In this document: positions 150 through 44,497 of the stretch, piece after piece | Position numbering within the stretch: the first letter of the stretch is position 1 | How the letters are laid out: each line of letters begins with the position of its first letter | Source of the DNA: Amoebophrya sp. A120 | Taxonomy: Eukaryota; Protista; Dinoflagellata | Length of the DNA: 48,039 nt | Assembly (NCBI GenBank): GCA_905178155.1 | Contig: CAJINV010000007.1 | Coordinates: 352,597-400,635, forward strand | Reading direction: 5' to 3' | Program-made: the position numbers and the translations under genes | Notes under the pieces: generated by a model | Seen by the model: only the letters and a program-made list of their open reading frames with translations | What the model was told of the DNA's origin: nothing | Database searches by the model: none

Positions 150-1997
150 CGTTTGATCACGAATTCGTCGAAGATGGCAGCTTTGTCAGAAGCACGCAGG
201 CGCACCGCCTCGGTCCGCTGGGCCCAGCACGCAAGAAAAGCAGCAACACCGACTGCATATCCTGTGGAAAAACATCCACATCCCCTAGTTAGTTTGTCAA
301 CAGGCCGATCTGCATGCTTAAAATGTCTCTCCTGTGGCGCCCACCCATGTTGAGACGCATTTTCTAGTCGTGCTTTGGAACTTGTGATCATGCTCAAGAA
401 ATCAGCAAAGTAAGTACTTTAGATCTTCTTTGACGCGGTTGCACGAGCTGAATACGATTGAATTACTCGCCCAAACTTGATGTCATGCGTAACAGCCACA
501 GCTTGTTGATTTGTCTTGCAGTAGATTTCCCGGCTTGACTATGTGTCATGCAAAGCAGCCAAAACTTGTGGCATGCAAAGCAGCCAAAACTTGTGGATTT
601 GCCTAGCCGATTCCCCATCTTGACTCCTAGGTTTGTGTTGCAAAATCCCCTAGGTTTGTGTTGCAAAATCCCCTTTTCGTAAAGAAAAGCACTTCGTAAA
701 GAAAAGCACTTCGTAAAGAAAAGCACTTCGTAAAGCAAAGCACTTCGTAAAAAGAAAGCGTAGCCATTGTAGCTCATGTAAAGACTCACAGCAGATACTT
801 CAACACACTAGCAGCGTGCGGGGGGGACCATTGTGGTCCCCCCCACCCGCTGCGCCTCTAAATAAAACACGCCAGGGAGTTTTCTTTTTTTTCCAGCAGA
901 GGCTGGCTGTGGGAAGTAGGGCATTGCCGGGGATTTGAAATGCAAATTATATGACGTTGGCACTGCGATTCTATTTCTATAGCTTATCTTGTGACGTTTA
1001 CATTTTGATTTTCTTTGGCTTTTCTCACTCTTTGGACAGCTTTCGCGTCACTTCATTGATTTTGCAAGTAATAGAAATCACCACGGAAAATGGAACGCGA
1101 ACGCGGAGTCGGAAACATTGAAAACGACCCCAAGCTCAACGGAAGCGCATGGAGGGTGGATGGGGGTTGCAAGATCTGCGCGTGCCGCTGCTGCTACAGT
1201 ATGAGGAAGACTAGGGCGTGGAGAATGCGCACGCGGGTGAGGAGGGAGGAAACGGGACCGAAACGAGAGCAAGGGGCGCAAGACGAAAGTGGATCGAGAA
1301 CCAACTTGCTGGAGCAGCGGACAAGAGCGGAAAGGAAGAATATCAAAACAAGATGAAAAAGCCTTTGATCCGCGCAATTGCTGGAATGTGAATGGCGTGG
1401 ACAGCGGAAGGGGTCTTTCACATTCCAGGAAACGCCCACCGCCCCCAATAGCTTCGTGATCCGAATGATGAAAAAAAATTTTAGAGGGGGCCGGGCAAAA
1501 AAAAAAAAAAAAAAAAATTTCCCGGCTTGACTATGGGAAGATGGGGGCGTTTTTACATATGACACTGCAACGATCGACGCAATCCTTACACCGAGAAAGC
1601 CTGCTATTGTGAGGAAAAATGCCCCCTCCCCATATCGAAAGCGAAACTTGTGTTGCTGTATTTGAGTACACAAATCCGAGCTGTCTTGTTGGAGAGCACT
1701 GCAGGCCCCTACGAAGTGTGAGTAGCGAGGCTTTGGCGTAGGCACTTAGCATGAAAAACATCCACGCTGTAGGCCCAACAGCATGACAAACCGCCTGCAC
1801 AATGCAGGGGAGCCTGCGGAGTTGCCTTCTTGCAAGACAGACGCGATTTGTGACCACAAATCAGCATCACAAATTTCCAAAAGTACACCTTTTCAGTATG
1901 GGGAGGGGGGATTTTTCCTCTCAATACCTGCGGATGCGTAGCTTCCCCCGCTGGTACTACACAGCGAATACTTCTTGGCGTTGATGTTCATCGGCAT
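1..1997 (-). CDS. Unknown signal-peptide protein family, paralog 1 (5' part; runs off the left window edge)
   Basis: Exons 1997-1927, 1599-1565 and 252-150, joined by excising TIR elements plus one TSD, give MPMNINAKKYSLCSTSGGSYASAGFLGVRIASIVAVGVAAFLACWAQRTEAVRL, homologous to the N-termini at 5849 and 13726. Confidence 0.8.
544..1516 (+). mobile_element. Putative retroposed insertion (SL-like motif, poly(A), 19-bp direct repeat)
   Basis: ATTTCCCGGCTTGACTATG at 525-543 and 1517-1535; 21-nt A run at 1497-1517; SL-like CGTAGCCATTGTAGCTCATG at 759-778. Confidence 0.6.
676..759. repeat. 17-bp tandem repeat TTCGTAAAGAAAAGCAC, ~5 copies
   Basis: Read directly from sequence. Confidence 0.95.
1605..1926. 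mobile_element. Introner family B
   Basis: TATTGTGAGGAAAAATGCCCCCTCCCCATA / TATGGGGAGGGGGATTTTTCCTCTCAATA; TSD CCTGC at 1600-1604 and 1927-1931. Confidence 0.92.
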
Positions 1998-2299
1998 TTT
2001 GGTCGAGAAGTGCAAGATAATGTAGAAAAACCTCGTAAAGAAAAAGAAGGGGCGTTGGTTTTATTTTGTGCTGCGGGTAGTCGTGTAGGATTTCTTACTA
2101 GGGTTTTTTACTAGGGCTTATCTACGAGGTGATAGATTGGGGACGAACGCTACTTGTTCACTCCAACTATACTACTGCTCAACAAAACAAGAGGCCCACA
2201 AGATCTTTCACCTCCAGAGATGATGATCTTAGCGGTTAGTTGTACTGGCGGTAAAAAAGAGTGCACAAAGCCGAGAAAAGTTGTGATGCGAAAAAGGGG

Positions 2300-7908: not shown

Positions 7909-10900
7909 TCACGGCTTCCCTTTGCAGCCGCCCGAAGGGTATCAAGTGTAAAAATGTCTGGGTCTGGAAGAATGCGCGATTTGTCATGCTGCTTTTCCAT
8001 GACGATGACCCATGAGGTCTGGAATGCCGGAGCTAGCATGACATATTCTGCGAGAACTTTCTAGTGCCTATCCTGCATGAGAAACTACCTCCCGACTTGG
8101 TCAAAATTGGGCGACTTTTGGTAATCATCGTTCGTTCGTATGGATCGGCTCTGCCGACCGGGTGACCCATCGCCTTGCATATAAATGACCGACATAGGCG
8201 ATCCCCGTTACGGGACATACATATTGGCCGTACGGAAGGGCCCTAGGCGCTACATACATAGTTCATCCTAGCGCCTACCACTTCGGTCGGGACTAAGTCA
8301 GCCTGGTCCTGGGGGTTCACAGCGCACTAGCCATCTGCTAGCATAAACAGACTGGGTTTTACAAACTGTAACTGATCTAACATCTCATAACAGTGAGGCC
8401 ATCATAAAGGTGCGCTAAAACGAGTTCGGGGCGCTCCGTACGGAAGGGAGCCTTTCGACGCGGCGCACACTCTCCTGTAGAGTTTTACGCGGAACACGGA
8501 TGGGCCGCGCACGCAACTCAGTCGAGGAGGACACACGCTCCCTCAATAATAGAGGTGGTAGTCACTCACGGCGGCTGGCCTGTCTGAAAACGGTAATCCC
8601 CACCTCCCATCTTCCCGGTTCGTCAATGACTCTGGCAAGCCATGTTACTTAGACTCCCCGCACATGCAAATATGGGACGGCGGGGGGGTTTTAAAAAGAG
8701 CTCTCGCCGTCCTTGATCTACTATAAAAGAAAAAGCCCTATAATTTCGGCGAGGCTGTTTAACTATTCGCTAGCTGATGGCCTCCTGTATAGTAATGGTC
8801 TCCCTTTTCTCCTCCTTTCCCCTTTCTCAATTTAACTCGCCTGCATCCTCCTGCTAATTTAACTCGCCTCCCCATTTATCTCGCTGAAAGCTCCGTCCTC
8901 AATTTCACTCGCCTGCCAATTTATTCGCGACGCCTACGGCTTTACTTCGGCGCATGGTGTGAAATCTTCGCGGCTTCTCTTCTCAGCTCCTCGACCTCTG
9001 CGCAGCGTTTTGCACTGTTGCCTTCGTTTTTTTTTTTTTTGGATCCGCGCCGCGCTTCAGTTTCAGTTTCAGTGGAGCGCCCCACCGGGCGGAATACTTC
9101 TGGTGGTAGACGTGGCCCAGGGATTTGTGGCTTCGCGCCGCGACGACTTGATGGGGGTCCCGCACCCCCCCTCCGTTTCCAAAAATGCAGTTTGTGCGTG
9201 AATGCTGCAAAACCTCCGACACCGCGGCACAAGAAGGAACAAGCTCCTCTTCACCATACACAAACCCAAAGAAGGAAATCTTCGGGATGAGGATATTGAT
9301 GACCGCAATCAATGACGCCAATGGCAACTACAACCCGAAGTAGGGGAGGGGTAGCTACTCCCGCACAACGCGCTGAATTCGCTTTGTACGTGTCGAGCCG
9401 GTAGCAGCGGCACACGTCCGACACAGCTTTTTTCACGTCGACGAAGAACTTTTTTTTTTTTGCTGCATCGGAAAACCCTAAACACCTAAACCCATCTATT
9501 TACTGCGGGAGGAAGCAGCCCCGGATTTTGTGCGACGAAGTTCGTAAAACGGTCAAAAAATTATTGTAGTGGTTACGCTATTGACTGTGTGCGCGCTTCA
9601 AAAAAACTTAAGCCCACACAGGTCCGCATTTAGCTACCGCCCGCCCTAAATGAGGCACGTCCTAACCCCGGTGGCAGCGAGGCAGTTCTTTTTTTTTGAA
9701 AATTACGCCGGGCGTTTGCAGGATAGCAGTAGCCGCAGATGCAAACCTGCGGCTGCTAAGACGGTTGTAAAATTAAATAGCACGAATAGAGTACTTTTAT
9801 TTGTACAAAGCGAAGTACTACGAACGAACGAGGGGGGAGGGGCGGGACCGTTGAACCCCCTGGCAAAAATCATGTCGCTCTGCTCTCCACCGGTGGAAAT
9901 CGAAGCTCTGCCCCGAACGATCGCCGTCTTCTGATATCAAGTGATAGACCCATACCCCCCAAGCAACAACCCGCTGGCTAGGCGGAAAAAAAAGAGAAGC
10001 CCCTGCGAGGACGCGGGGTCCGCGGAACGACTAGCGCTACAAGGCGTGGATCAAGTAAGACTAAGTGCGAAGACCACTAGGAGACGACAAAAGACTGTAA
10101 AAGGGTAGAGACCTACATCTACATGGGACAACACCGGGCACGGGGAAGATCTAATTTTTTAAAGGCGAAGGAGCGTACGAATTTGCGATCTAGCTCCTTG
10201 GACAAAACAAACGAAGAGCGGCAAAGGCGAAGTGCTTAATAACGACTACAAGATGGCAGGAGTCATACAAAGCATACATAGCAGCAGCAAGCAAATCGGA
10301 TTCGCATTGCTGTGCACCGGCAGAAACTTCAATCACAACGAAACCCAACCCCTCAGCCGCGAAGCCGAAGGGCCGGGGGCCTGGCACCTAACTCGAGGTT
10401 TGGAGTCCAAGCACCGACGTCCTGTTCTTGACATCTTGTTCTTTTGTAAGGCATGACTGCAATTCTTTTGTAAGGCATTGCAATTCTTTTGTAAGGCGCT
10501 TGTTTCTCTGAGTGCGGTCGATCTTCTTGGCCTATCGTCGTCGCCTGTTTGAAAGTTTGGACATTTTTGAGGCGCCCCGCGATTCGCCTGAAGCTTCTCG
10601 GGGTGATCTTGGCCCTGTCGCGTTCGTTGGCAAATTAAGGGATCCCCTGGAGATCCTTAATCTGACTGCGCTGAAACGATCTTAGAAGTATGAGGGCAGG
10701 ATCTTAAGACGAACGCGCCGGGTCATATTTTCCGGCAGTCCTCGAGCCTGCCGGGCCTTTTCTTTTTTAATTCAAACGGGAAATAGTGTTTTCGTTTTTT
10801 TCTATGATTTCGATGCTGTGCGTTTTTCAAAAATCTCCGGAGTGCATTTCTCAGACTTTTCAGTCGCTCGGCCTGGTGTCCGATTTTCGGTCCGTCACTA

Positions 10901-13726
10901 TGTCACTTCAATCATAGGGATCCTGCGTCGCCTGAAGTCGTCCCCCCGCTCCCCCTCCTGTGCTGTCTTGCAGCGATCTCCGAATAATCCGCTGCATTGT
11001 CTGCGCCAGCGTTTCCCCCTCTCCCGCCGCTTTTTGTTTACTATTTTCTTGCTCTTTACTCTTTTGCCTTTTTCTTGCTATTGTGCCACCATCCTCCGCC
11101 CCTCTTTTCTTTGAGCCCTTTTCTCCCCCCTCCGGGCTGTTCCTCCTCCTTGCATTTTCACTGTTCCTCTCTCTTCCTCTTTGTCCTGAAGAGCTACTTG
11201 CTCCGCGGCCTTGAGTCGCCCCTGCCTCTTTTGAGTATCTACGATGCCCTCCGTTCGAAAACTCTAAGGAGTACGGTGCTCGCGATGTCAGCGGGTCCAC
11301 TTCTGCGCGTGTTTCTCCGGCCGGCCCTCTTTCCGTCTTGCTTTCCTTTTTTCTTATTTCCTCTTGCTTCTTTGGCTTCCGTTGAGCCGTCGGCTTGTCA
11401 TTTCCTCCCGTACTTCTTACCTCTTTGCCGGTGCTACTCCGCGTTATCCCTATGCTTATGCCCTTGCTTTCTAGCGACGCTCTTGCTTTTGGCTGCACTG
11501 CTGAGAATCTGCCTCCTTGTGCCTCTTTATCGCGCCGCTCCTTTTGCTTTTCATTTATTCTCTGGGCAGCCTCCTTCTCTCCTTTTCCCCCCTTAATTTC
11601 ATTCAGTGCGGGCCTCTGCTGTTTTGCTGGATCGCTTTCCCCTACGGCCAGCCTCTGCTCTGTTCTTTTCTCCTTCGGCCCTTCCGCTGTATTTTGGTTG
11701 CTTTGCATTGCCGCACTACCTATGTCGCTCTCTTCCTCCTCGTCTGCTTGATTTTCTGCACCTGTCCCCTCTTTTTCCCAGATGTAGTTCCGGAGCTCCT
11801 CTGGTAGTAGCCGCCTTTCCTTTCTTTCTATTATCGAGAGCGATAGCGATTGCGCCACTGCTCCCCCTCTGTCGTCCTCTGTACTGTTTTCCCTCGCGTC
11901 CCTTTTGTCTTGCTCGCTCTCTTCTTTCTCCCTTATCATTCGCTCGGCATTCTCCCGTAGTTTATCCATTTCGTCTTCGCCTGCCTTCTTTACTTTCATT
12001 CTCTCCACTAGATGCGCCACCTCTTCACTTTCCTGCTCATCTTTCCACTCTTTGAGTATTCCTCTGATGTCGCTATTCGCTCCAATGTCTTCGGGTTCGT
12101 CTATTCTTGTAAGCTCTTCCGGGCATAGGGCTCCTGTTATAAAGTCTTGCCTTTCAGTCTTTGTCATCTCTGGCCAAGCTTCTACGTCCGGCAACTCTAG
12201 CACTCCTTCTCCGAAGTCATATATCGGCCATATAAGCGATTTTTTATCCATTTCCGACACATCAACGGCCTTGAGAGTCTTGCAGGTTACTATCTCTACG
12301 CCTTCTTCCACCCTCCTCTCTTCTTCCTTCACCTCGAGACTTCCCCTATCGATACACATTCCCGCCGTGCCGCGGTGGCCCTGAAATCGTAGGCGTCTCT
12401 GAGCTTCCTTCTTCTCTATTCCGCAGCTCTTTTCTAGCCTTTCCTCTAATTGTTGGTGTAGTTCTTCTATCTTCTCCGTCAGCAATCACAGATTTTTCCA
12501 TGCTGCAGATTTAGCATGACAAGTTGCAATCTTCCAGACCCAGACATTTTTACATTTGATAAAGGGCTTCGGCTAGAGCTGCTCCGACGTTGAGGTTGAT
12601 CACGGCGGGGCTGGGCACTAGTACTTCCCGTACGACTATCAAATGTAAAAATGTCTGGGTCTGGAAACTTGTAATGCTGAGTTGTGAATAGTGAATGGCA
12701 ATGGTCTGTAATGCTGCATAGCGGCCAAGCATGAGAAATATTTCCGGGGCTTAGTGTTGCGCTTTCCGCATGACAAACTGCGTTTTTGCATGACAAGCAA
12801 AAGGGTCTCTTTCTGGACACGCATCACAGACTTTTTAGTCATGCCAGACAAGCATGACAAACCTTGCACCCTTCCAGACCCAGACATTTTCACATTTGAT
12901 AACGACCTCCAACACGACCGTCGAGAGCCGGGCTGCTGCTTCCGCTCGGCTCGCGTGCCGTCCATCCAAACCGTCCAAGGTGGTGGTTGACCATAACAAG
13001 AAGCTTCTGGTCCACGAGCTGACGCTCCTGCACCGTTGCCCTTTTGAATTGACTCGGAGTAAGCTGGTCTGGGACCACTCCTTGCACGCGGCCTTCGCGC
13101 AAAAACTCCTCCTCCTGCACGAGGAGCCCACACTGCAGCTTGAGAAGCTTCGCCCTCTCCCGACGCAGCTCCGGCAGGGTAAGGGTCCCGAGGCGGGCCG
13201 CAAGCTCCTCCTCCGTCTCGCTTTGCAGAGGATCAACGTCTGGGATGCGGAGGGTTCTTTTACACGACAGGATATCAACATGATTGTCGACCGCGAGAAG
13301 CTTCTCGTTCACCGAGAGAAGCTTCGGAATGTGCGACAGAAGCAGTTCTCGGTTCTTCCGCAGAAGCTCGTCCTCCATTGTCTCTGCTGCAGGCGCCGAA
13401 AGACGCTCCTCGCCTCCCACCTGCAGAAGAGGGTCATGCTCCTCCTCGATGCCGCGATAAAGGCGTTCCTCGTTAAGAGTTGAGCGAAGTTGCAACAGAT
13501 TGGCCAGCTCTTCTGCATCTACCGTTCCCAGAGCAGCTGCGCTCCCCAGACGTACCGCCCCGACCGACTGTGGGCAGCCCGCAAGAAGAGCTGCAGCAGC
13601 ACCGGCTGCAAAGATCGACGTAACTACCCTTGCAGCGAGCGGAAAACATGCGGACGTGCAGCTACCCCCGCTGGCACGCAGAGAAATAAACCTCTTGGCT
13701 TTGAAATTGTTCATCGTCATTTTCAA
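7909..13726 (-). CDS. Unknown signal-peptide/coiled-coil protein, paralog 3
   Basis: ORF 12890-13726 plus exon 12631-12562 plus exon 7934-7909. Spliced C-terminus RRSSSSRSPSGGCKGKP* resembles the paralog 2 tail SRSRSPSQCRLRP. Confidence 0.75.
8140..8790. ncRNA. Candidate structured non-coding segment (family unknown)
   Basis: Several perfect stems (8169-75/8196-202, 8244-52/8269-77, 8675-82/8705-12, 8395-404/8775-84), repeated 13-mer CCGTACGGAAGGG, no long ORF. Confidence 0.3.
10440..10497. repeat. Three copies of CTTTTGTAAGGC
   Basis: Read directly from sequence. Confidence 0.85.
10908..12485 (-). CDS. Intronless E/K/R-rich ORF inside the giant introner, apparently 5'-truncated; function unknown
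   Basis: 525-codon open frame with strong purine bias on the coding strand, starting at the cargo/introner junction; no domain recognised. Confidence 0.5.
   Translation of the reverse strand: MLTEKIEELHQQLEERLEKSCGIEKKEAQRRLRFQGHRGTAGMCIDRGSLEVKEEERRVEEGVEIVTCKTLKAVDVSEMDKKSLIWPIYDFGEGVLELPDVEAWPEMTKTERQDFITGALCPEELTRIDEPEDIGANSDIRGILKEWKDEQESEEVAHLVERMKVKKAGEDEMDKLRENAERMIREKEESEQDKRDARENSTEDDRGGAVAQSLSLSIIERKERRLLPEELRNYIWEKEGTGAENQADEEEESDIGSAAMQSNQNTAEGPKEKRTEQRLAVGESDPAKQQRPALNEIKGGKGEKEAAQRINEKQKERRDKEAQGGRFSAVQPKARASLESKGISIGITRSSTGKEVRSTGGNDKPTAQRKPKKQEEIRKKESKTERGPAGETRAEVDPLTSRAPYSLEFSNGGHRRYSKEAGATQGRGASSSSGQRGRERNSENARRRNSPEGGEKGSKKRGAEDGGTIARKRQKSKEQENSKQKAAGEGETLAQTMQRIIRRSLQDSTGGGAGGRLQATQDPYD
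12637..12901. mobile_element. Introner family A
   Basis: TATCAAATGTAAAAATGTCTGGGTCTGGAA TIRs; TSD ACGAC. Confidence 0.93.
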
Positions 13727-28088: not shown

Positions 28089-28109
28089 GTGAAAGAGATG
28101 TGACTTATC

Positions 28110-31100: not shown

Positions 31101-33870
31101 TTCCGTAGAAATAAAGATCGCTCTGTCCTAACGCAACTACACTCAGCAACACAAATTCACTGCGTTCTACTTCCAGACATCCGCGGTGGATTTAAGTATT
31201 TGCATTTGATAAACGAACGTTGGCTTTGAACTCTGGGACTTTGCGAGTGTCACCGCAGCCTGAAATTGCTCTGGGTCCTCAGCGTCGCCTCGTTCGATGG
31301 TTAGTACGTTCCAACCGTAGGCTTCGAAACTGTTTTTATTTTTGTAGAATTCTACTTGCAAAAACTGCATGAGAAACGTTTAAAACGTTGCGTTGATAAT
31401 GATATTGGAGCCGCTGCATCACAGATTCAATTTGGACAAGCAACTACCCCCTCTACTAGTATGAAACATTTCTATACCGCTTCCCGACATTCTCCGTGAA
31501 CGCCAGCTCCGTGCTACCGTCGATGGAAATCTTGTTGTCGTCGTAAAATACGATCAACTTCGACAACTTCCAGTGCGCAGCGAGACTGCAATATCCCAGA
31601 GAAAAAATCTAGAAGGGCATATAATTTGTATTGCAAAAATGAATACACAGAAAATTTCGTCATGGACGGCCCCAAAAAATGCTGTTTAGAGTCCGCAAAA
31701 AAGATTTTTTTATGTATTTACTTTCGCATATACAAATATGACCTGCCTGCTTTTTTCTGTGTGATATGCAGGCCTCCGAAGCCACCCCCTCCATCATGCA
31801 GCCGTCCCCGGTTAGCACGTAGGTGTAGGATATCCTGTGTAAAAACATCCCCACCCCAGAGTTGTCATGCAGATCTGCAAGCGCAAGAGCATTTGTAATG
31901 CGCATTCCCATGAGAGGCATTTCTCATCGTATTTTGGAACTTGTAATGCTGTAAGCAGGATAACGAGATGGATTTGTTATGCGGCTCCCCTTGCTAAACT
32001 GCATTACACTACAGCCTGCAACTTGTCATGCGTGGCTCCCAAAACTTCGAGGTTTGTGTTGCAAAATCCCCGTCTTGACTCTGGGGTGGGGACGTTTTTA
32101 CAATCGATATAGGAGTCGAAGAGCGGGAACCCGGGCTTGTTAAACCGCGCGGCCAAATGCTTCTCGCATAATGCCATCCCCACCGCGTTGGTAATGCCCT
32201 GCCCAAGGGGTCCGGTGCACACCTCCACCCCGGGCGTGGCGAAGTTTTCTGGGTGGCCCATCCTATGTAAAAACGTCCCCACCCCATAGCTGTCATGATA
32301 ATCTGCAAGCATGGTAAAAAAGTTTCTCATGCGGAGCCCTATGAGAAGCGTTTTCTCGTCGCGTTTTGGAATTTGTGATGCTTGAATCAGCATGATAGGC
32401 TAGGTCTGATGCTGCCGGAGCTAACTAAACAAGACTACAGCACCCAGAGGCCAAACTTGTCATGCGCAGCAACCAAAGCTGGTTGATTTGTCTAGCAGAA
32501 CTCCCATCTTGACTCTGGTGTGGGGACGTTTTTACATAAGATATGGCCCGGGGTTTTGCTATGGAGCTGGCGGAAGAGCTTCAGGTCGTCCAGAGAAACT
32601 TGGTAGCTGATAAAAAGGTTTATTTTAGACGCATAAAAACTTACTTCACCTTTTGAATTTGAAAACAAATCTACTGCATGACAAGAATCTGATGTCGTCC
32701 ATATATCACGATCGATCGCAGGAGAAAATTGGTTCTCACTCGTGCTGCTGCCGGAAATTATAGGCTACGCCGATAATAATAAACCTATACCCTGTCAAGT
32801 GCAGCATGCAGTATTGCAGCGCGCACGCGTGTCCGTTCGATAGAACAAAGCGATTATCAAATGCAAAAATGTCTGGGTCTGGAAGAATGCAACGCGTGAT
32901 GCTATTTTTGGAATCTAAAAAAATCTGCATTGCATGAGTAGCAAAGGGAATGCAATTTTTGCTACGCTGAGAAAGCATTTGTCATGCGGAAGAGGCATCA
33001 AGAAGCCCTCAGAATATCTGTATTGCTAGAGTATGCATCACAGACATCATGGCTCACAGAATCTTCCAGACCCAGACATTTTTACAGTTGATAGCGATCC
33101 CGGTTCAGCCACTTCGGATTCTCCGGGGAGAAATGCATGATCTTCCCGAATATCAACTGCAAAAATGTCTGGGTCTGGAAGATTGCAACTTGTCATGCTG
33201 TTTTTGGACTCTAAAAAAATTTGTGTTGCATGACCCAGCAAGAGGGGCATAGTTTGCGCTACACGGACAGGGCATTTCTCATGCGGAAGGTGCACCAGGA
33301 AGCCCTCTAAAAGTCTGCGATGCTAGTCCTGCATTACAGGCATCATGGGTCATGAGAAATATGCATGACAAGTCTTGCATTCTTCCAGACCCAGACATTT
33401 TTGCATTTGATACCGAACAACGCAGCCGCTAATGGTGCGCACCCCATTGGCGCTCCCGGGTGGCCGGAATTCGCCTGCTGAACCATGTCCGCAGCCAGGC
33501 ATTATCCGTAGGAAAAACGTCCCCACCCCATACTTGTCATGCAGATCTGCATGCTCAGCATGTGTGTCATGCAGGTCTCCATGACAGGCATTACCTAGTC
33601 GCGTTTCTGAATCTGTCATGCGCCAATCAGGATGACAGAGAAGTGGATCTGTGATGCGTCTGAACTAGCTAGGCACGACTACACTGCGTAAGTAGCCAAA
33701 CTTGTCATGCGTGAGTCCCAAAGATGCTCGATTTGTCTTGCCAAAGTTCCAACTTGACTACGTGGTGGGGACGTTTTTACAAGGGATAGGCATCGGATCG
33801 TGTTTACGGCTAAAACGGATTTCTCATCGTGCGGACCTGGTGGATTTATATGATTGGCATAATTCGCCAT
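28110..33870 (-). CDS. TKT: Transketolase (17 exons)
   Basis: Spliced motifs [77 protein letters not shown]; 12 TIR/TSD introns, 3 GT-AG introns (32607-32790, 31330-31477, 28902-29038) and 1 ambiguous intron (~29932-30053). Confidence 0.97.
28229..28509. mobile_element. Introner family A
   Basis: TIRs; TSD GATCA. Confidence 0.88.
29405..29663. mobile_element. Introner family A-related
   Basis: TIRs; TSD CGGTG/TGGTG. Confidence 0.85.
30087..30295. mobile_element. Introner family F
   Basis: TATCCAAGAAAAAAACTG / CAGTTTTTTTCTAGGATA; TSD ATTTC. Confidence 0.9.
30359..30593. mobile_element. Introner family F
   Basis: Sister of 30087-30295; TSD CAGCG/CAGTG. Confidence 0.9.
30655..30911. mobile_element. 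Introner family A
   Basis: TIRs; TSD TAGTT. Confidence 0.9.
30930..31211. mobile_element. Introner family A-related (degenerate)
   Basis: TATGCATTGCAAA / TTTGCATTTGATA; TSD AAGGA/AACGA. Confidence 0.8.
31592..31766. mobile_element. Introner family F-like
   Basis: TATCCCAGAGAAAAAA / TTTTTTCTGTGTGATA; TSD TGCAA/TGCAG. Confidence 0.82.
31831..32109. mobile_element. Introner family C
   Basis: TIRs; TSD TAGGA. Confidence 0.92.
32259..32543. mobile_element. Introner family C
   Basis: TIRs; TSD TGGCC; splits the GHPE motif. Confidence 0.92.
32855..33093. mobile_element. Introner family A
   Basis: TIRs; TSD GCGAT. Confidence 0.93.
33151..33412. mobile_element. Introner family A
   Basis: TIRs; TSD CCGAA. 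Confidence 0.93.
33503..33788. mobile_element. Introner family C
   Basis: TIRs; TSD GGCAT. Confidence 0.92.
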
Positions 33871-35494
33871 GAATTCAGCTCCACAAAGAAGATGAAAACG
33901 CTACTAGCTTGTCTTCGCCAGGTCCGCATGAAAAATCCGTTTTGTTCTCATGCAGATTTCTACACTACATGTACTCATAGTGTCGACGTAATATCACTTA
34001 CCTTTCGCAGACTGCAGGTCGGCTTTCAGCCGTTTAGCAGCAGGCTCCCCCGCACCAGCGGTCATGGTCATAGTGGGTTTATTCACGACAATATCGGCGG
34101 ATCAATTTCGAAGTACTTATTATATAGGTGAAACTTTTGGTTACACAAAAATGTTGCACTATTCTGACTCAGTGCACTAGAAGTTTGTTTCGGAGTTCTT
34201 TTTGTATTCAGAAGATTACCGTCAAAAATCAGTTGTTTCCCGTTTCGTCCGCTCCTAATAATGGAGCTACTTCTCAAACAGTTCTGAGGACAAATCGGTT
34301 GAAATGAATCGGATCACAGACAGGTGTCGCTTGTTTCCAAAAACTGCTTGAAAATTTGTCTGCACCCGCAGCAAAGAACTTTGCAATTTGCCGTCGCTTA
34401 TTGGGTCGTTTTGATATAAAAATGTGCACAAAACAATTCTAACTTTGGCTCGGGCACAGAGGACCACTTGCGCACCGGACGCAGCTTCGCGACACTGTGG
34501 CAAAACTTCCGAAATGTTGAACAGTGCGCGAGGTTCCTCTTCCTTTTGTCCTCGACCACCAGCGTAGGCGAAGGCGTTAATTTCGCACTACAACTTCTTT
34601 GCTCCAATTTGACACGCGGCTTTGGATTTTCGCAAAATGTCAATATCATTGTGTGTTGCTCGTAGAAGTTGTTCCGCAACACAAGTAGTACCGACTCGAT
34701 GCTGCTGCATGTAAGAAAGATCTAGTCGCTGCGCTGTAAAACGCTGCTGCAAGAAAAAAATGATCTGGGCTTTGATATTGAACAGCTTTTGCAAACTCTA
34801 CTTCAGACACTTTTCACGGAAACTACGCCGCGCTTTGTTCGATAAGACTATGCGAATGATTTCCTGTAGAAGGCGCAGCGATGTTGCACGGGGCGAGCCA
34901 GCACAACTCCGATGCGCTCTAGGTAAAGATTCGGAGAGGCATTCATTTTTATGGAGAATGAGGTGCAGGTAGAAGTTTACCCCTTTTCTGTGGCTCAACT
35001 ACGAGGGCAAACGGAAATGGAATGCAAACAATCGTACAATTACTACTGCAATTTAACGCCGCTGTTAGTAGGCAGCTTGATTCTTTTGCTTAATAAAGGT
35101 ACATTTTTATTGGAGATCCAACATGAAATAAAGGTAGTGGAGGCATTGTTCGAAATAAAACTGGAGGTGCTAGTAAGGCTCTGCATTGTAAAAGAAAAAA
35201 GAAGCTGTTCGCCATTTTCCCGCTGTGCCACCGATCTGGCACCACAACCGGAAAGAAGACGCTTGCCGCAAGTTGTAGCTTTCACACACAGCAGGAAAAT
35301 GAACTGTGCTAGCGTGTTATGGAAAATAAGGACAGACTCGAGAATTATCGCAAGCACCTCGAGAAAGAGAAAAACGTAAATGTGGAAAATATACATTTTC
35401 ACATAGAGCAGTAGTGCCAGTGTAGTTCTTTATAACTGCATTCTACAACTACAAGACTTATCTCGTCGTAACCCAGCATTCTGTCAAATTCTTC

Positions 35495-38400
35495 TCAGAA
35501 CGGCGTGCACCTGGAAGCGATGTTCAGGGCGCAGTCGGTTTGAAAATACGTGCACCTTGTGAACCGCAGTTTGTCGACCTCCTGCTTCGACACCCTATGC
35601 TTTGCAAATATGTCTGGGTCTGGAAACTTGTAATGCTAAAAATGCATGATATTCTCACTGCAATACGCAGCCAAGCATGACAACTTTTGCGGGCTGCTAG
35701 GTGTTGCGTATTCCGCATGACAAACTGCGTTTTTGCATGACATGCAAGAGAGCCTCTTCGCGCTCACGCAACACAGATTTGAGAACTAGGAGATGTCTTC
35801 ATGACAAACTTCCAGACCCAGACATATTTGCAGTTCATACACCCCCGCCAGGAGCAACACCTGCTTGGCCACCGGATCCTCGCCCCGCAGAGGGTACTCC
35901 ACGACCGTTTTTGTGTGGAAAAATGCCCCCTCCCCATATCAAAATGGAAATTTGTGATGCTGATCTGTGGCCACAAATCGGATTACTCTTGCAGAAAATG
36001 CTTCTCGATATTTTCCAAGCCTGTTCGAGTATGCAGAAGGCTAGCGATGAAGCATGGCAAACAGGTTTGCAGTAGTCGAAAGCGCATGACAGACTCGCTG
36101 TAGAATGCGCCACAATACTCCCATTAACCTATAGGCAAGACAAATCTGATTTGTGTACGCAAACCCAGCATCACAAGTTTCCTTTTCGACCATATGGGAA
36201 GGGCGCATATTTCCTTTTGATAACCGTTTTTGTGTGGGTGTCGTAGGTATCAGACAAGATCAAATCCTATCAAATGTAAAAGTGTCTGGGCCTGGAAGAA
36301 TCCGAAACTTGTTATGCTGTTTTTGCATGACACAGAATGTCTGTCATGGAAGCCCTAGCATCACAGATCTTTAGAGGCCATCCTGGTACCTATTCCGCAT
36401 GACAAATGCCCTACACGCGTAGCACAAACCGGACTTCTTTTGCTGGTCATGCAATACAGAATTTTTTAGAGTCCAAAGTTAGCATCACAAGTTCCAACCT
36501 TCCAGACCCAGACATTTTTGCAATCCATAAATCCACCTTTCGTGGGTTCAAACTCACCATCGAGTGCGACGTCGAACCACCCAACGCGCCGGCGCTGGAG
36601 TTGAACTTGCTGTCATCAGTTTCGTCGAGAAACTTGGAACCTGATTTTCAAATCGAAATTATGTTGCTAATGTGGGGAGCTTGTTTGTTGCCATGCACAG
36701 AAGTGCCCCACAATGAATATAATTATCGGGGGCGTTAAGAACTGCAACATCCTTGTCCTACACGACCTTGCAACACAAAAGCTACTACTTGCTTTTGTAC
36801 CTCCCGTGTCTCCCCCCGGACTGAGTTCCTCGGGGTCCTCGCTTTTCACCAAATTTGGACTCGAGGCAGTCAAGTTCTGGCTCACGTAACTCAAGTTCGT
36901 CAGGTGATTCTCCCGGAGCCGGTGTCGCAGCAACTCTGCTAGATAAACCGACTGTTCGTTCGGCGAGGTCACGTCGTGGATCCCGTGAAAGAGCCGAATC
37001 CGCCTCCGCGGCAGCCGCTCGAACAGGAGGGGGTGTCTTGCCAGGAGCTGCAGCGGGGAATGCTCTTCGATTTTCTCCTATGCATTGCAAACATGTGGTC
37101 TGCACACTAAGATTGCAAGGCTTGTCATGCACATTTCGCATGACCCAAGGTTTGTCTGTGATGCATGCCCTAGCACCACAGAGTTTTTGCGGACTTCTTC
37201 ATGCGTATGATCGTCCCGAATGACAAATACACTCTCTGCGTAAGTAGCAAAAACTGGAAGTCAACTCCTCTTACTGCTCATGCAATGCACATTTCTTTTT
37301 CACTCCACAGGCAGCATCACAAGTTGCACTCTCGTTCCCGACCCAGACTACATATTTGCATTTGATATCTCCTCCACCCCGGCGAACATTTGGATGATTT
37401 CCGCGGGGATCGCCGCCTTCGCGAGGTGATCCTGCATATGAACTGCAAATATGTCTGGGTCTGGAAGAGTCGGGGCTTGTCATGCACATTTTGCATGACC
37501 CATCAGGTCTGTGATGCTGGTGCTAGCATCACAGATTTTTTGAGAGCTTCTTGATGCTAATTACGCATGACAAATGCCCTCTCCGCGTGCCAAGAGCTGA
37601 CTCCTCTTACTGCTCATGCAACACAGATATTTTTAGAATCCGCAGACAGCATTACAAGTTCCACTCTTCCAGACCCAGACATGTTTGCATTTGATCCTGC
37701 AAACCCGGCAAATCGTACACACCCGACCACCCGAAAAAGTTCGCAAACTTAAACTCGTCGGTACCCAGGAGGGCGAGCAGAGCCAGGTGCGCGCCGGCAG
37801 ACTGGCCACACAGAGTAATTTCGTTCGGATCGATGATGGGCAATAGCTTCGGTTTATGGTCCAGCTGATGTGTACTACCAGCAGCTGCCGAATGATCACC
37901 ACCCCCGCCGCCCACTTGTTGCTGTTTCAAGCTCGCATTGGAACAACAACTCGGGTTGTTGCTGTTGGGGATGTTCTGCTTCACCCACCGCAGCGCCTGC
38001 AAAACGTCGTCAACCATCTCGCGGAAGGTGGCGAATGGAAAATTCCGGTAGTCGATGGAAATCGAGACCACCTTCCCGCTCTCCGCTAGGTGTCCGCTCA
38101 ACGCTGCACACCAGTACCGATGGCCGATCGTCCACGCGCCGCCAGTCACGACGATGACGAGCGGAAGCTTGTATGCTGAGCAAAAACGTCCCCACACCAG
38201 AGTCAGGATGGGAAATCTGCTAGACAAATCACCAGGCTTTGGCTGTTGCGCACGACAAATTTGGGCTCGCAATGTAGTGGCGCTTAGCTAGTGCAGCAGC
38301 ATCACAGATTCAGCACAACATGCAGACTTAAGCATCACAAATATCAAAACACCACTAGAAATTGCTTCTCATGGGTATCCCATGAGAAATATTTTCAGCA

Positions 38401-40575
38401 TGCAGATATGCATTACAACTCTGGGGTGGGGACGTTTTTACAAATGATAGCTTGTAGTTCGGATTTTGCAAGTCCTTTTCCGTCAGGTTCAGCGGGTAGA
38501 AAACTTCCAACACATTCCGGCTGTGCTTTCCGTACTGGAAGGTCTCCGTGTAGCGGAAATTCTTGTACGAGTTGTTCTCACCGGTGGATCCGGATGAAAA
38601 GCTTTTACCCTGTGGTCCACCACCGATCAGCTTCCTTCCGCCGTACACGTACCTCCACCACACCCAAATGATAGCTATGCATTGCAAAAGCAAATAAAGT
38701 ATAATTGCACTGCTATGATAAAATTGCATGACAAGAAAATTCTCGACATAGTTGCAAAAATGGATTTTCTCATGCGCGACATTTTATTTCAGGTAAGATA
38801 GCATGGCTCTGTAGTCAACATGCCAGACTCCTGCAGTACGAAATTATACTTGCTTCATGCTCAGGATACCCCCGGGAAAAACGCAAATCCCGACGATGAC
38901 GATCCCCTGCAGGTACCGAATGAAGGTCAAGATCCACTGCGTCCAGAACAATGGGTTGAGAGTAATCTGAATCAGCCAGAAGTAAAGTCTCGGGAACCGA
39001 AACACCCGTTTATTTTTCCCCTGCTGTTTTGTTACAATCAAAAGCGCCCCCATCCCAGAAGCTGGCAGCATTTTCACGTGTATTGCAAACCTTTCCAATG
39101 AAAACAATCCCCGTCTTGCATATACCAGCATCACAAATTCGCCATGCTGAATAGCAAAAATTTGTATTGCAAAAGATCCCAGAAAGGGCGGCGCTTGTCA
39201 TTCAAGCGATGCTGTATACGACTAGACTCTGCATCACAAAGATTCATAGTGCTTTCATGCAAGACAAAAAGTTTTCATTTGGAAACTTCGCATCACAACT
39301 TATGGCAACTTTCGGGGTGGGTGCATTTTTCATTGTGATATGCTTCTGGAGGTACTCTTCCCGCGCGTCCGGGGAGTTGGTGAAGGGGGATGCGTATGAA
39401 TTGCAAAAAGTGTCGTACTCGTATAAATGCATTACAAATTTTCCCAGCGTGAGAAATAAAACTTGTAATGCGGTTTTGCCTTAAGAAAAACATTTGTAAT
39501 GCAAGACTTGCATTTATACGAGTACGATACTTTTGCACAGGATAATGCGTAGTTGCTATCCTCTGAAACGGAGCCGACGGAATTGTACGAGTACCGGTTG
39601 CTGGAGCGATTCGAAGCCGTGCTGTACCCACGATTCCGCCCGCCGTGCTGCGGATATGAATTGCACAAGCATCGCACTTCTAGTATGAATTGCATTACAA
39701 ATTTCCTCAGCATGAGAACTGGAATTTGTGATGCTGATTGACGTTAGGAAAAAGATTTGTAATGCATAACTGCAATTTTTACCACGAGTACGATACTTTT
39801 GCAATACATAGCGGATGGATGTTCGCGATTTCCACGTAGAACAGATGCAGCCAGAACTTCTTCACCGGTCGCTTGATAAACTTGTAGCACTCGGTCACGA
39901 TGGTTCGGCACAGAAACGGGATGAAGGTGACGATGAAAATCACGGACGAATAGAGAATGTAGAAGTAGCTTTCCGCGGTGGAAACCTTCTTCGTGGACGG
40001 TCCTTGTGGGTTCCCCGTGCTGCTCGTGTATTCTTTCGTACCACTGTGCTGCCCGACCGAGCGGGACACCTGCCGGATCTGCGACCCGTAGTTCATCTGC
40101 GTGTTCACGGTTTTATCCAACAGAAAAAAGGCTAGAGCACCTCCACATTATGCAAAAATAAACACACAGCAAAGAAAATCTGTCATGGGCGGGCCCATAG
40201 CCATAGCACGCTGCTCTTGCTACGTAGCATGTTGTGCTTCTAGCTTTTTTCTGTAGGATATGCCCGGGGCGACAGCTCCGAACTGCTGGTGACCAGGGAA
40301 TTCGCTCCAGACAAATCCTCCGATGGGGTGTAGTTCCAGCTGCGGAGCAGGTTCTCAAACCGCGTACGGTCGACGTTGAGGGACTGAAATAGCTCGTTTT
40401 CGTAGCGGTTGTTGGGCACATTGAAGGTCCACTCGTCCCCGCGGTAGACGTGGATCAGACCGTAATCCGCGTCATTGGTCGGTAGAATCAGCGGCGAATT
40501 CGACATCGGGGAGGATATCTGTGGCGACCCGGGTGAGGCCGCGGGGAGGTAGTGCCGCCGCGGGGTTTCCGGCAT
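35495..40575 (-). CDS. Isoprenylcysteine methylesterase (ICME)-like alpha/beta hydrolase with N-terminal TM segments
   Basis: VVTGGAWTIG, IDYRNFP, nucleophile GQSAGAH, HGIHD (Asp), THT (His), YPLRG, C-terminal TPF*; 11 TIR-derived introns plus one GT-AG intron at ~36641-36788/36800. Start uncertain. Confidence 0.87.
35596..35839. mobile_element. Introner family A
   Basis: TIRs; TSD CACCC. Confidence 0.9.
35909..36222. mobile_element. Introner family B
   Basis: TIRs; TSD ACCGT, extended to a 15-bp direct repeat. Confidence 0.88.
36268..36529. mobile_element. Introner family A
   Basis: TIRs; TSD AATCC. Confidence 0.9.
37079..37367. mobile_element. Introner family A
   Basis: TIRs; TSD TCTCC. 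Confidence 0.88.
37437..37696. mobile_element. Introner family A
   Basis: TIRs; TSD CTGCA (direct repeat extends to GATCCTGCA). Confidence 0.9.
38172..38449. mobile_element. Introner family C
   Basis: TIRs; TSD GCTTG. Confidence 0.9.
38676..38868. mobile_element. Degenerate family-E introner now bounded by GT...AG
   Basis: TAT...ATA termini, TSD lost; on the minus strand GTATCC...GCATAG (38869-38675, 195 nt) is in frame. Confidence 0.7.
39030..39340. mobile_element. Introner family D
   Basis: Similar to 20820-21124; TSD TGTTT/TGCTT. Confidence 0.87.
39395..39544. mobile_element. Introner family E
   Basis: Long TIRs; TSD ATGCG. Confidence 0.9.
39655..39810. mobile_element. Introner family E
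   Basis: Sister of 39395-39544; TSD GCGGA. Confidence 0.9.
40114..40260. mobile_element. Introner family F-like, TSD not recognisable
   Basis: TATCCAACAGAAAAAAGGCTAG / CTAGCTTTTTTCTGTAGGATA; removing element plus 5 nt restores the frame. Confidence 0.75.
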
Positions 40576-42938: not shown

Positions 42939-44497
42939 TTACTTCGTCGGCGGGATGTAGGCGTTCGTGTACAAGTGCCGGGCTTTCTTCAACATCGCCA
43001 TCTTGTTGTCCTTCCGCTCGATGTAATCCCCAGTCGACCCAACATCTCCGAAGAAGAACAAGCTACTCCCAGGCGAGTCGATCCCGTTGTCCGGGAAAGT
43101 CTTCGTGTCCGGCGAATCCCGCCCGTACGGCATCGTGTTAAACCGGTAGTTCAAAAACTGGTCGGAAATCGCCTCCACACCATCGTGGGCGACGGCATCC
43201 GGGGTCAGGTACTTCGTTAACTCGCTAAAGTCCCGCTTCTCCGTATCCTGTGGAAAAACGTCGCCGCCACCCCAGAATTGAAATGAGCTGCACTGCAAGA
43301 TAGCAACACAAATCCACAAGTTTTGTGTGTTGCACATGTTGACAAGCTTGGGCTCGTAGTGTCGTCCTAATTAGCATTTTAAAGCGCATCACAGATCGAT
43401 CATCTTATTCTGGTTCCAGCATGGCAAGTCGCCAGATAGCATTAGAAACTGCTGCTCAGCATGGGCGTGCGCATGAGAAACTTTTTGGGTTTGCGGATTC
43501 GCATGACAAAAACTCTGGGGAGATGGGGACGTTTTCACTATGGATACTCCGTGGCTTCCTGGATCGCTTGGTCCCACAACTTTTCCAAAGCGATTACTTT
43601 CCTGATAAGTTTTATTTCTGCAAGATCATTACTTCCTATTCGTATATCGTATTCTGTCGTCCTTTACGTGCATTACAAAAATTCAGTATCACCTCGTTTC
43701 CGCATCACAAATTTTGAAGAACCAGAAAAATAAGTACATGTTGTATTTCTGCATGCGCTGTTCCAGGTCCTCGGACTCGGAGAGGAAGAAACTATGCATT
43801 GCAAATATGTCTGGGTCTGGAAACTTGTGATGCAAGGAAGGGAATAGTGAGCTCAGTGCAATGCGCTGCCAAGCATGACAAGTTTTTTTCATGTTTCTGA
43901 GTTGCGTATTCCGCTTGAGAAACTGCGTTTTTGCATAACTACGGGGAGGAGGAGCTCTTCGCGGCCACGCAATACAGAGTTCAGAGTCATGCCAGATTAG
44001 CATGACAAATCTCGTCGCAACCTCCCAGACCCAGACTGATATTTGCATTTGATAAAATCCACTACCCCACATCTTCGAGGTTAGCTCGTACATCCGCAGC
44101 TTCTCGATTGCCATATACGCATCGGTTTCCGAGACAACGTACCTGAGCAAGGTAAGTTTTGGCTCTGTAGTCTCGTCGCCCATCTTTTTTCTTTTTGTCC
44201 TACTTGATCTTGATCTTGAATGAAGAACTGCATGAGAAATAATGCTGCTACCATGCACGCCCGGCATCGCAGAAAAAAGTATCAAAAAAAATTATTATAC
44301 GAGACAAACAGGTTGTATCCGAGCAAAACGCCCAGCACGCCGAGGCATTTCAATCCGAAACCCGGCAATTGCCGATCCCACTCCGCCACTGCTGGCCCGA
44401 GTGAACTGCCGTACATCTTTACGACGAAGTCTTTCACCGACGTCATCACCAATTCCATCGTTGGCCGCTTGGACCGGAGCCATAACCTGGGGATCAT
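42939..44497 (-). CDS. Probable myzozoan cytochrome c oxidase subunit, ApiCox25-like
   Basis: Hydrophobic segment, then EKLRMYEL...WGSGFFLSESED, LEKLWDQAIQEAT, YRFNTMPYG..PDT..FP, GDYIERKDNK and YIPPTK*, resembling apicomplexan ApiCox25 as recalled (not searched). N-terminus and first intron uncertain. Confidence 0.65.
43244..43546. mobile_element. Introner family C
   Basis: TIRs; TSD CTCCG. Confidence 0.9.
43793..44054. mobile_element. Introner family A
   Basis: TIRs; degenerate TSD GAAAC/AAATC. Confidence 0.85.

What the first reader, a model, noticed from the sequence alone, without database searches (positions are those of the whole stretch)
258..44054. One short motif, GCAT(C/G/T)ACA(A/G), recurs in introners of unrelated TIR families and in canonical introns
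Seen: GCATGACAA, GCATCACAA, GCATTACAA and their complements (TTGTCATGC, TTGTGATGC) recur several times per element across the TIR families, often facing inward from both ends, and appear scarce in exons and intergenic DNA. They also occur in GT-AG introns (32676, 31416, 29967). Inference: a shared binding site for the transposase or for the factor that marks these segments for excision, i.e. an intron-definition code independent of splice dinucleotides.
Basis: partly seen in the sequence, partly recalled or inferred. Interest (0 to 1): 0.72.

Follow-up and report, generated by a model that had tools for sequence, protein, structure and literature searches.

The report
Helically phased motif inside jumping introns
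The mobile introns of a parasitic marine protist carry about six conserved copies of one 11-letter DNA word, spaced in step with the DNA helix, which likely form a landing array for the still-unknown protein that moves these introns and may also help mark them for splicing.

Summary
GCATBACAR occurs 114 times (3.1 expected): 105 in TIR introners, 6 in GT-AG introns, 2 in exons, 1 intergenic. A transketolase exon is 100% identical to an Amoebophrya sp. A120 protein. The elements are its known introners (TAT..ATA ends, 5-bp TSD), removed from cDNA-type contigs as element plus one TSD.

Using 362 further elements, the motif is RYYTGT-N-WTGC, about 6 per element, on both strands. Its core diverges 2.8-fold less than neighbouring DNA, while the middle base is free. 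Sites in both orientations share one 10.4-bp helical register, with a 31-33-bp doublet, across nine TIR types (0 of 300 randomisations reach it).

There is no hairpin covariation, no significant strand bias in intact elements, and no general nucleosome periodicity. The constraint mirrors the TIR's: core/other is 0.23 on internal and 0.47 on terminal branches. In copies with broken ends the motif decays no slower than its surroundings.

Best reading: a double-stranded-DNA binding array for the mobilising complex (0.55). A host intron-marking role (0.25) stays open, because TIR-less canonical introns keep the doublet. The families share outer TIRs, so they are not unrelated. I found no description of the motif in the papers seen.

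The parts
258..44054 (.). Region holding 44 hand-delimited TIR element segments (one further partial end at 1-153 is among them) and 8 canonical introns; 111 of 114 strict motif matches lie in them
28110..34075 (-). Transketolase gene (689-residue open frame over the spliced part); exon 28510-28899 is 100% identical to a protein named Amoebophrya sp. A120
28229..28509 (.). TIR introner, family A, TSD GATCA; skipped as 281+5 nt; 4 PWM sites
29405..29663 (.). TIR introner, family A; skipped as 259+5 nt; 6 sites
30087..30295 (.). TIR introner, family E, 209 bp; skipped as 214 nt; 6 sites
30359..30593 (.). TIR introner, family E, 235 bp; skipped as 240 nt; 5 sites
30655..31211 (.). Two adjacent introners (30655-30911, 30930-31211) around a micro-exon; cDNA contigs keep 7 letters between the joint sides
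   Evidence: (tables 5, 5c)
31592..31766 (.). TIR introner with no strict match and a single PWM site, still skipped (175+5 nt)
31831..32109 (.). TIR introner, family B: six same-orientation sites at 37, 68, 116, 149, 198, 229 (three 31-33-bp doublets)
32259..32543 (.). Family B introner with a broken left end (CAT for TAT), still skipped (285+5 nt)
32855..33093 (.). Family A introner; skipped as 244 nt
33151..33412 (.). Family A introner, 262 bp, TSD CCGAA; skipped as 267 nt; 6 sites
33503..33788 (.). Family B introner; skipped as 291 nt; 8 sites
29932..30053 (-). GT-AG intron with two sites 33 bp apart (strict matches 29967, 30000), no TIR
31330..31477 (-). GT-AG intron with two sites 49 bp apart (strict match 31416)
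32607..32790 (-). GT-AG intron with one site (strict match 32676)
28902..29038 (-). GT-AG intron with two variant sites in the other orientation, no strict match
43602..43737 (-). GT-AG intron with a 32-bp doublet (strict matches 43670, 43702); skipped in X3/X4, continuous in X1
33837..34001 (-). GT-AG intron (predicted boundaries), two sites
36641..36800 (-). GT-AG intron (predicted boundaries), one site
44143..44300 (-). GT-AG intron (gap between contig pieces), two sites 34 bp apart
20185..23640 (.). Seven TIR introners (families B, C, G) in a minus-strand gene whose frame opens to 691 residues when they are removed with one TSD each
35596..40260 (.). Eleven TIR introners in a minus-strand gene, several with broken ends (35909, 37437, 38676, 39030)
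43244..43546 (.). Family B-type introner; skipped as 303+5 nt in X3/X4, continuous in X1
43793..44054 (.). Family A introner; skipped as 262+5 nt
7940..12561 (.). Family A introner (TSD AAGGG) split by an insert of about 4.4 kb; sites in both halves
12637..12901 (.). Family A introner with 9 PWM sites
1605..1926 (.). Family C introner in non-coding context, with the full site layout (49, 148, 180, 231, 263)

Best explanation
The motif is a conserved, helically phased internal repeat of Amoebophrya A120 introners that likely serves as an array of double-stranded-DNA binding sites for the protein complex inferred to mobilise them. Shown: an 11-bp word RYYTGT-N-WTGC, about 6 per element, on both strands, first copy usually 37-38 or 45-50 bp from an end, often as a doublet 31-33 bp apart, all on one 10.4-bp register. 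Shown: elements have TAT..ATA ends, a shared A-tract, a family-specific doubled hexamer at TIR positions 17-28 and a 5-bp TSD, and are removed from the RNA with one TSD copy. Inferred: one sequence-specific DNA-binding domain (of the transposase or of a host cofactor) coats one face of the element and helps bend it or pair its ends. Only copies that keep the array go on to transpose, so the word is shared by families that differ in the TIR hexamer. Inferred: after insertion the sites decay, and sites in canonical introns and intergenic DNA are mostly relics of older elements. The protein is not identified.
For: Core mismatch to family consensus 1198/15550 (0.077) against 7711/35759 (0.216) for other interior positions; middle base 509/2245 (0.227); core lower than other in 13 of 13 clusters. 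Period 10.4 bp with score 0.50 in 9 distinct-TIR clusters (131 pairs), 0 of 300 randomisations reach it. Still 0.45 without the 29-35-bp same-orientation pairs, and 0.50 for opposite-orientation pairs alone (66 pairs), which a single-stranded RNA site cannot give. Window elements alone: 0.36, null maximum 0.14 of 1000. Core/other change ratio 0.23 [0.17-0.29] on internal and 0.47 [0.42-0.51] on terminal branches, matching the TIR hexamer segment (0.26, 0.55). Neutral-rate decay in 99 degenerate copies (core 0.025, other 0.024) and in the 53 with a broken TAT (0.040 vs 0.029); core mismatch is equal in coding (217) and non-coding (33) contexts, 0.081 each. No significant orientation bias to transcription in 308 locus elements (133 vs 112, p=0.20). 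Precedent for phased subterminal sites bound by transposases: PMC6188088, PMC10368747, PMC1636448.
Against: No transposase or autonomous element was found: none in the window or in 477 kb of loci, no Pfam hit for 4 of 4 window ORFs scanned, and Farhat et al. report no putative transposase in A120. Terminal-branch constraint is still twofold (0.47), which could be host selection. Canonical introns without TIR or other homology keep strong sites and doublets, more than simple decay of the sampled families would leave. The families share outer TIRs and some interior segments, so the nine clusters are not independent origins of the phasing. The aged copies are only about 2.5% decayed, and six redundant sites per element could hide selection for splicing. 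In the 27 unclustered elements the 10.4-bp peak was not the best one (best 8.1 bp; 0.13 at 10.5).
Confidence: 0.55

Rival explanations
1. A host DNA-binding factor uses the phased array to mark intron DNA and to recruit the splicing machinery co-transcriptionally, replacing splice-site recognition in a cell without U1. Introners spread because they carry the mark on both strands.
For: Only 12 of 332 oriented elements can be read as GT-AG under any TSD shift (antisense control 11), yet 12 of 12 single-element joints listed remove exactly element + 5 nt. U1 was not detected in A120 (PMC7789003). 8 of 8 window canonical introns have a site of at least 10 bits. Low-GC predicted canonical introns hold 3.5 such sites/kb against 0.71/kb in other non-coding DNA. 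The doublet persists without TIR (p=0.0009), and family HMMs hit these introns only through the motif (5 hits unmasked, 0 masked). Terminal-branch ratio is 0.47.
Against: Neutral-rate decay in immobilised copies, and equal conservation in non-coding context. 14 of 26 low-GC predicted canonical introns have no strong site; only 4 of 42 hold a strict match. One spliced element has a single site (31592-31766). Motif clusters lie in non-coding, non-intron DNA such as L015 and L126.
Confidence: 0.25
2. The motif acts in the pre-mRNA, as a site for an RNA-binding protein (UUGU-N-AUGC) or as pairing arms that extend the TIR hairpin.
For: All 6 strict window matches in canonical introns and 5 of 5 in clean locus introns read UUGUNAUGC on the transcript. 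With the PWM at 10 bits the ratio is 10:3 (window) and 11:6 (loci). Window elements lean the same way (17 vs 5, p=0.017). Aged copies lose antisense cores slightly faster when positions are pooled (0.106 vs 0.086, p=0.01). Many interiors fold better than shuffles.
Against: The per-element test of that strand difference is not significant (p=0.33), and terminal branches show none (0.46 vs 0.48). The middle bases of mirror sites are complementary in 90 of 260 cases against 84.7 expected. Family B has only 2 of 32 sites paired in predicted folds. Opposite-orientation sites are phased at 10.4 bp (all).
Confidence: 0.1
3. The motif has no function of its own; it is a module inherited from one ancestral element and spread by internal duplication and recombination.
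For: Shared outer TIR; BLAST links between some families; family B looks like a tripled unit of about 81 bp.
Against: Core positions are conserved 2.8-fold while the enclosed middle base and the flanks drift; the internal-branch ratio is 0.23. Inheritance alone would not spare 7 of 11 positions.
Confidence: 0.05
4. The pattern is a generic nucleosome-positioning or DNA-bending signal, not a protein-specific site.
For: The 10.4-bp period; one family is about 150 bp long.
Against: Outside the sites WW, AA/TT, TA, GC and SS steps show no clear 10.4-bp peak (amplitudes 0.006-0.030, about equal to or smaller than those at 8 bp). The word carries about 12 bits.
Confidence: 0.05

Closest known systems
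Amoebophrya A120 introner elements (Farhat et al. 2021, PMC7789003; Gozashti et al. 2025, PMC12130899)
   Same: Same organism by a 100% protein match; IR beginning TAT + 7 nt + AAA, 5-bp direct repeat, non-canonical splice sites, length near 240 nt. Most of the 22 of 58 A120 family rows I saw in Dataset sd07 are classed 'TIR DNA, Unknown'.
   Different: The passages, section 16 and supplement text that I saw describe only terminal IR and DR motifs: no internal motif, phasing or doubled TIR hexamer. Supplement figures were not viewable.
Subterminal repeats of hAT elements (Hermes, PMC10368747) and of the Emigrant MITE (PMC1636448)
   Same: Short repeated internal sites in both orientations on a non-autonomous or TIR element; in Hermes exact phasing is stated to be crucial.
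   Different: Those sites are 4-bp words (Hermes) or are family-specific, and hAT TSDs are 8 bp. Here an 11-bp word is shared across TIR types, fills the whole element and has a 5-bp TSD; no transposase is known.
IS607-family ends (IS1535, PMC6188088)
   Same: Helically phased 9-bp motifs 20-60 bp from the end nucleate a cooperative transposase filament.
   Different: IS607 elements are bacterial, lack TIRs and TSDs, and use adjacent direct repeats. Here sites are spaced three turns apart, in both orientations.
Oct4-Sox2 composite element (recalled, not from a call)
   Same: The core TTGT-N-ATGC reads like the recalled composite site.
   Different: The following AAAT is not conserved here, and no such factor was sought in this protist; treated as a coincidence or a lead only.

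Membership tests
A120-type introner (Farhat 2021) | Terminal inverted repeat starting TAT, 7 variable nt, then at least 3 A | tested here: met
   End profile of 388 elements; TAT and an A-tract or long TIR were search criteria, reversed-sequence control 0
A120-type introner (Farhat 2021) | Direct repeat of 3-5 nt at the boundary | tested here: met
   5-bp TSD perfect in 324 of 388, one mismatch in 64
A120-type introner (Farhat 2021) | Removed from RNA without fixed splice dinucleotides | tested here: met
   12 of 12 listed single-element joints skip length+5 in runs guessed as RNA, continuous in X1 where its contig spans them; GT-AG readable in 12 of 332
A120-type introner (Farhat 2021) | Repeated family members elsewhere | tested here: met
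   147 BLAST hits at E<1e-20 between the window and the loci, up to about 90% identity among the 40 longest; 18 clusters of 3 or more
Transposase-bound subterminal repeat | Short repeated site inside a TIR element, conserved in transposing lineages | tested here: met
Transposase-bound subterminal repeat | Fixed spacing or helical phase | tested here: met
   phase relative to the element end is weaker (vector length 0.33 for 62 sites)
Transposase-bound subterminal repeat | Bound by the cognate transposase and needed for excision | not testable with these tools
   no transposase identified
hAT superfamily | 8-bp TSD | tested here: not met
   TSD is 5 bp; 8-bp target from PMC10368747
Branch-point sequence | Sense-strand word at a fixed short distance from the 3' splice site | tested here: not met
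   Both strands and many distances in elements; scattered 11-221 nt from the 3' end in canonical introns
RNA stem element | Covariation between mirror copies | tested here: not met
   90 of 260 vs 84.7 expected
Obligate intron-definition signal | Present in nearly all introns and retained after immobilisation | tested here: inconclusive
   8 of 8 window canonical introns but 12 of 26 predicted low-GC ones; neutral-rate decay with wide intervals
Nucleosome-positioning sequence | 10-bp WW/SS periodicity along the element | tested here: not met

The most novel reading that the evidence does not exclude
One DNA-binding protein reads a helically phased code inside both introners and older canonical introns. 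It serves the elements' mobilisation and also flags the DNA for co-transcriptional excision from the RNA in a cell that lacks U1 and ignores splice dinucleotides: introns defined by a DNA-level mark, not by RNA splice sites.
Probability: 0.2. Interest if true: 0.92.

Novelty: new variant of a known kind. Interest (0 to 1): 0.62.

Why it matters
How tens of thousands of non-canonical introns in Amoebophrya move without a recognised transposase, and how they are spliced without U1 or GT-AG, are stated open questions (PMC7789003). A conserved, phased 11-bp site shared across introner families gives a concrete bait for finding the responsible protein, and a mutation target (scramble, or shift by half a turn) that separates mobilisation from splicing.

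Tried and rejected
No whole genome was held for the window and the loci's records could not be searched for U2 snRNA, so genome-wide counts and U2 pairing were not tested. TIR and doublet patterns found 0 matches in viral contigs and 0 in prokaryote genomes. No autonomous element: 5 long TIR pairs were listed, among them the 4.6-kb window element; none was shown to carry a transposase; 0 Pfam families for 4 ORFs. Locus ORFs were not scanned against Pfam. Two EM runs were mis-set (symmetrised, off-centre) and were replaced. Masked alignments between cluster representatives gave few links but had low power, even within family A, so 'unrelated interiors' is not shown. The window's strand excess (75 vs 39) was not reproduced in locus elements. 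CpG decay as the source of the TG/CA-rich word is unlikely, because the shuffles keep dinucleotides. Terminal complementarity in canonical introns was only marginally above shuffled partners (5.5 vs 5.2 nt). The one raw-read RNA run laid (X9) placed only 136 partial reads, nearly all at 90-95% identity, and was not used; no RNA holder was on record. Earlier-findings look-ups returned nothing.
Full report
OBSERVATION. GCATBACAR matches 114 times on the two strands (75 plus, 39 minus), against 3.14 +/- 1.76 in 100 dinucleotide-preserving shuffles. With 44 TIR segments, 8 canonical introns and 7 gene bodies delimited by hand, 105 matches fall in TIR elements (9.75/kb), 6 in GT-AG introns (5.1/kb), 2 in exons (0.18/kb) and 1 in intergenic DNA (0.05/kb) (two intron boundaries corrected without changing these counts). 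The enrichment is real.

ORGANISM AND ELEMENTS. A 130-residue transketolase exon is 100% identical to a protein named Amoebophrya sp. A120; the next hit is A25 at 66%. The elements begin TAT, end ATA and are flanked by a 5-bp duplication. Contigs of runs guessed as RNA (X3, X4, X6; one sample) skip them and also skip GT-AG introns. Of 15 joints listed (40 more not shown), 4 are canonical, 10 remove one element plus 5 nt, and 1 spans two elements around a micro-exon. One search lists two more element joints and one canonical joint in X3/X4, while a contig of X1 runs continuously from 39774 to 43818. All 12 single-element joints equal length + 5. Removing the introns opens frames of 689 and 691 residues. 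This matches the A120 introners of Farhat et al. 2021 (PMC7789003; I saw the abstract, found passages, section 16 and supplement text hits): IR starting TAT + 7 + AAA, 5-bp direct repeats, U1 not detected, no putative transposase in A120.

LARGER SAMPLE. A scan with the family A TIR returned 134 loci from one public assembly, 476,732 bp after merging. None of the 40 longest BLAST matches to the window exceeds 326 bp; they are element copies, up to about 90% identical. The organism of that assembly was not established, and the loci are biased toward family A. A TAT/ATA + TSD + TIR finder called 388 elements (362 in loci, 26 in the window; 0 in reversed sequence), 324 with a perfect TSD. The end profile shares S4, G9 and A11-15. 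Positions 17-28 are family-specific and often a doubled hexamer (GTCTGG x2, TCGTA-type, CCCCA-type). So the families are variants of one end type, not unrelated. Some share interior segments; masked alignments were too weak to settle homology of the rest. Strict density in loci: intact elements 1040 in 89,905 bp (11.6/kb), element-like remnants 8.4/kb, predicted introns 0.64/kb, other non-coding 0.24/kb, coding 0.04/kb.

THE MOTIF. A family-weighted EM gives R-Y-Y-T-G-T-(C/G/A)-(A/T)-T-G-C, about 6 sites per element. In 13 clusters (336 elements) core positions mismatch the family consensus at 0.077, other interior positions at 0.216 and the middle base at 0.227; the core is lower in 13 of 13. 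This is the profile of a sequence-specific site under purifying selection.

GEOMETRY. Same-orientation sites are most often 31-33 bp apart, then about 83, 93, 114 and 124. A scan over periods 8-13 bp peaks at 10.4 bp, with register at the G of TGC: 0.50 for 18 clusters and for 9 clusters with distinct TIRs, reached by 0 of 300 randomisations in each set. It survives removal of the 29-35-bp pairs (0.45; 0 of 300) and holds for opposite-orientation pairs alone (0.50, 66 pairs). Window elements alone give 0.36 (37 elements, 429 pairs; null maximum 0.14 of 1000). Against: the 27 unclustered elements keep the 31-32-bp doublet but not the long-range phase, and phase relative to the element end is moderate (0.33). 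The clusters also share ancestry. Phasing of sites on both strands at the B-DNA pitch points to double-stranded DNA (inference). Outside the sites there is no clear WW/SS periodicity, so a generic nucleosome signal is unlikely.

RNA-LEVEL TESTS. Transcription direction was assigned from a self-trained codon model. In 308 locus elements the two orientations are 483 and 413 on the transcript; elements favouring one form number 133 vs 112 (p=0.20). The window alone leans 17 vs 5 (p=0.017). Mirror sites show no covariation at the middle base (90 of 260; expected 84.7). TIRs pair in predicted folds, but family B has 2 of 32 sites paired. Only 12 of 332 elements can be read as GT-AG (antisense control 11).

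WHEN IS THE MOTIF CONSTRAINED? On trees of 11 clusters the core/other change ratio is 0.23 [0.17-0.29] on 291 internal branches and 0.47 [0.42-0.51] on 324 terminal branches. The TIR hexamer segment behaves alike (0.26, 0.55), the middle base is near 1, and the two orientations do not differ (0.46, 0.48). In 99 degenerate copies, extra decay over the family baseline is 0.025 for the core and 0.024 for other positions. In the 53 with a broken TAT it is 0.040 and 0.029 (difference interval -0.015 to 0.045). Elements in non-coding context (33) keep the core as well as those in exons (217). This fits selection in transposing lineages with relaxation afterwards. The residual terminal constraint may come from unsampled transposing lineages or from the host; the sample cannot separate these, and redundancy among six sites lowers power. 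Pooled aged positions lose antisense cores faster (0.106 vs 0.086, p=0.01), but the per-element test does not (p=0.33).

CANONICAL INTRONS, THE EVIDENCE AGAINST MY READING. All 8 window GT-AG introns hold a site of at least 10 bits (5 seen as listed joints, 3 inferred from contig gaps or prediction). Of 42 predicted clean locus introns (no RNA support; some are evidently miscalled repeats), 4 hold a strict match and 13 a 10-bit site. Among the 26 low-GC ones, 12 do: 3.5 sites/kb against 0.71/kb in other non-coding DNA. Five of 14 same-orientation pairs are 31-35 bp apart (p=0.0009), and family HMMs hit these introns only through the motif (5 of 50 unmasked, 0 masked). The sense form prevails (10:3 window, 11:6 loci). 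Either these derive from unsampled older elements or the host retains the sites. Motif clusters also occur in non-coding DNA outside predicted introns (L015, L126, L028).

MECHANISM. Shown: anatomy, conservation, phasing, RNA removal with one TSD. Inferred (0.55): a DNA-binding domain of the transposase or of a cofactor binds the array on one helical face and helps pair the ends; the doubled hexamer may give family specificity. Rivals: a DNA-level intron mark read by the host (0.25), an RNA site or stem (0.10), passive inheritance (0.05), nucleosome signal (0.05). No candidate protein was found. Gozashti et al. 2025 (PMC12130899; passages and supplement rows seen, files 13-14 not searched) note A120 TIR elements with homology to LTR-retrotransposon ORFs. 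That a 5-bp TSD would fit an integrase-type enzyme is my inference from recalled knowledge.

COMPARISON AND NOVELTY. Phased or repeated subterminal sites bound by transposases are known: IS1535 (PMC6188088, passages), Hermes (PMC10368747, passages) and Emigrant (PMC1636448, abstract). The elements themselves are published. I found no description of this internal motif or its phasing in eight full-text searches or in the passages read from PMC7789003, PMC12130899, PMC9860276, PMC12166617, PMC12005148 and bioRxiv 10.1101/2020.10.14.339549. Figures, subscription journals and bioRxiv supplements were not visible and may bear on this. Verdict: a new variant of a known kind, interest 0.62, because it makes the open questions of mobilisation and U1-free splicing in this organism directly testable.

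Noticed in passing
window 7940-12561: A family A introner with matching TSD is split by an insert of about 4.4 kb that encodes a 525-residue charged, low-complexity ORF (10911-12485, minus) with no Pfam hit.
   Followed up: partly
window 258-1560: A family B introner is interrupted at about 544-1518 by an insert that ends in poly(A) and is flanked by a direct repeat of about 19 bp, like a non-LTR retro-insertion.
   Followed up: partly
window 24970-25137: An element with a damaged right end, just past the stop codon of the glutaredoxin-like gene, is retained in an X4 contig (24956-25488 continuous, low depth) while the next element upstream appears to be skipped.
   Followed up: no
window 30912-30929: A micro-exon between two adjacent introners; cDNA contigs keep it precisely.
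   Followed up: partly
TIR positions 17-28 of elements in the window and loci: The family-specific TIR part is often a hexamer repeated twice, with a different hexamer in each family; it is as constrained as the motif core.
   Followed up: partly
window 33812-33840 and 33919-33946: A canonical intron holds an inverted copy of about 28 nt of the neighbouring exon.
   Followed up: no
window 35904-36238: The left end of an element is replaced by a 15-bp copy of the exon sequence that follows the right end.
   Followed up: no
window 25494, 32259, 37437-37695, 39030: Elements whose terminal TAT/ATA is mutated still appear to be removed from the RNA (joint seen for 32259; open frames or contig gaps for the others), so the terminal triplet seems not to be needed for splicing.
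   Followed up: partly
window 3481-5850 and 12561-13720: Two minus-strand genes with similar N-termini (basic, then hydrophobic, then C-x-Q-S-[AV]-G-A-V), no Pfam hit for the ORFs scanned; 2200-2900 and 6240-6940 also share duplicated non-coding blocks.
   Followed up: no
window 14860-15330 and 18780-19190: Two inverted arrays of a unit of about 80 bp and about 61 bp, sharing GGTCTCCGGTCCTCGGTCC, bracket a GC-richer 3.4-kb region.
   Followed up: no
window 44680-47350: Two adjacent satellites (CACACG-type, then a palindromic CACCGCCCCGCCCAC-type unit); neither holds the motif.
   Followed up: no
canonical introns, window and loci: Canonical introns mostly start GTA(C/T/A) and end CAG, with T-rich 5' and A-rich 3' parts (donor and acceptor were filters for the locus set).
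   Followed up: partly
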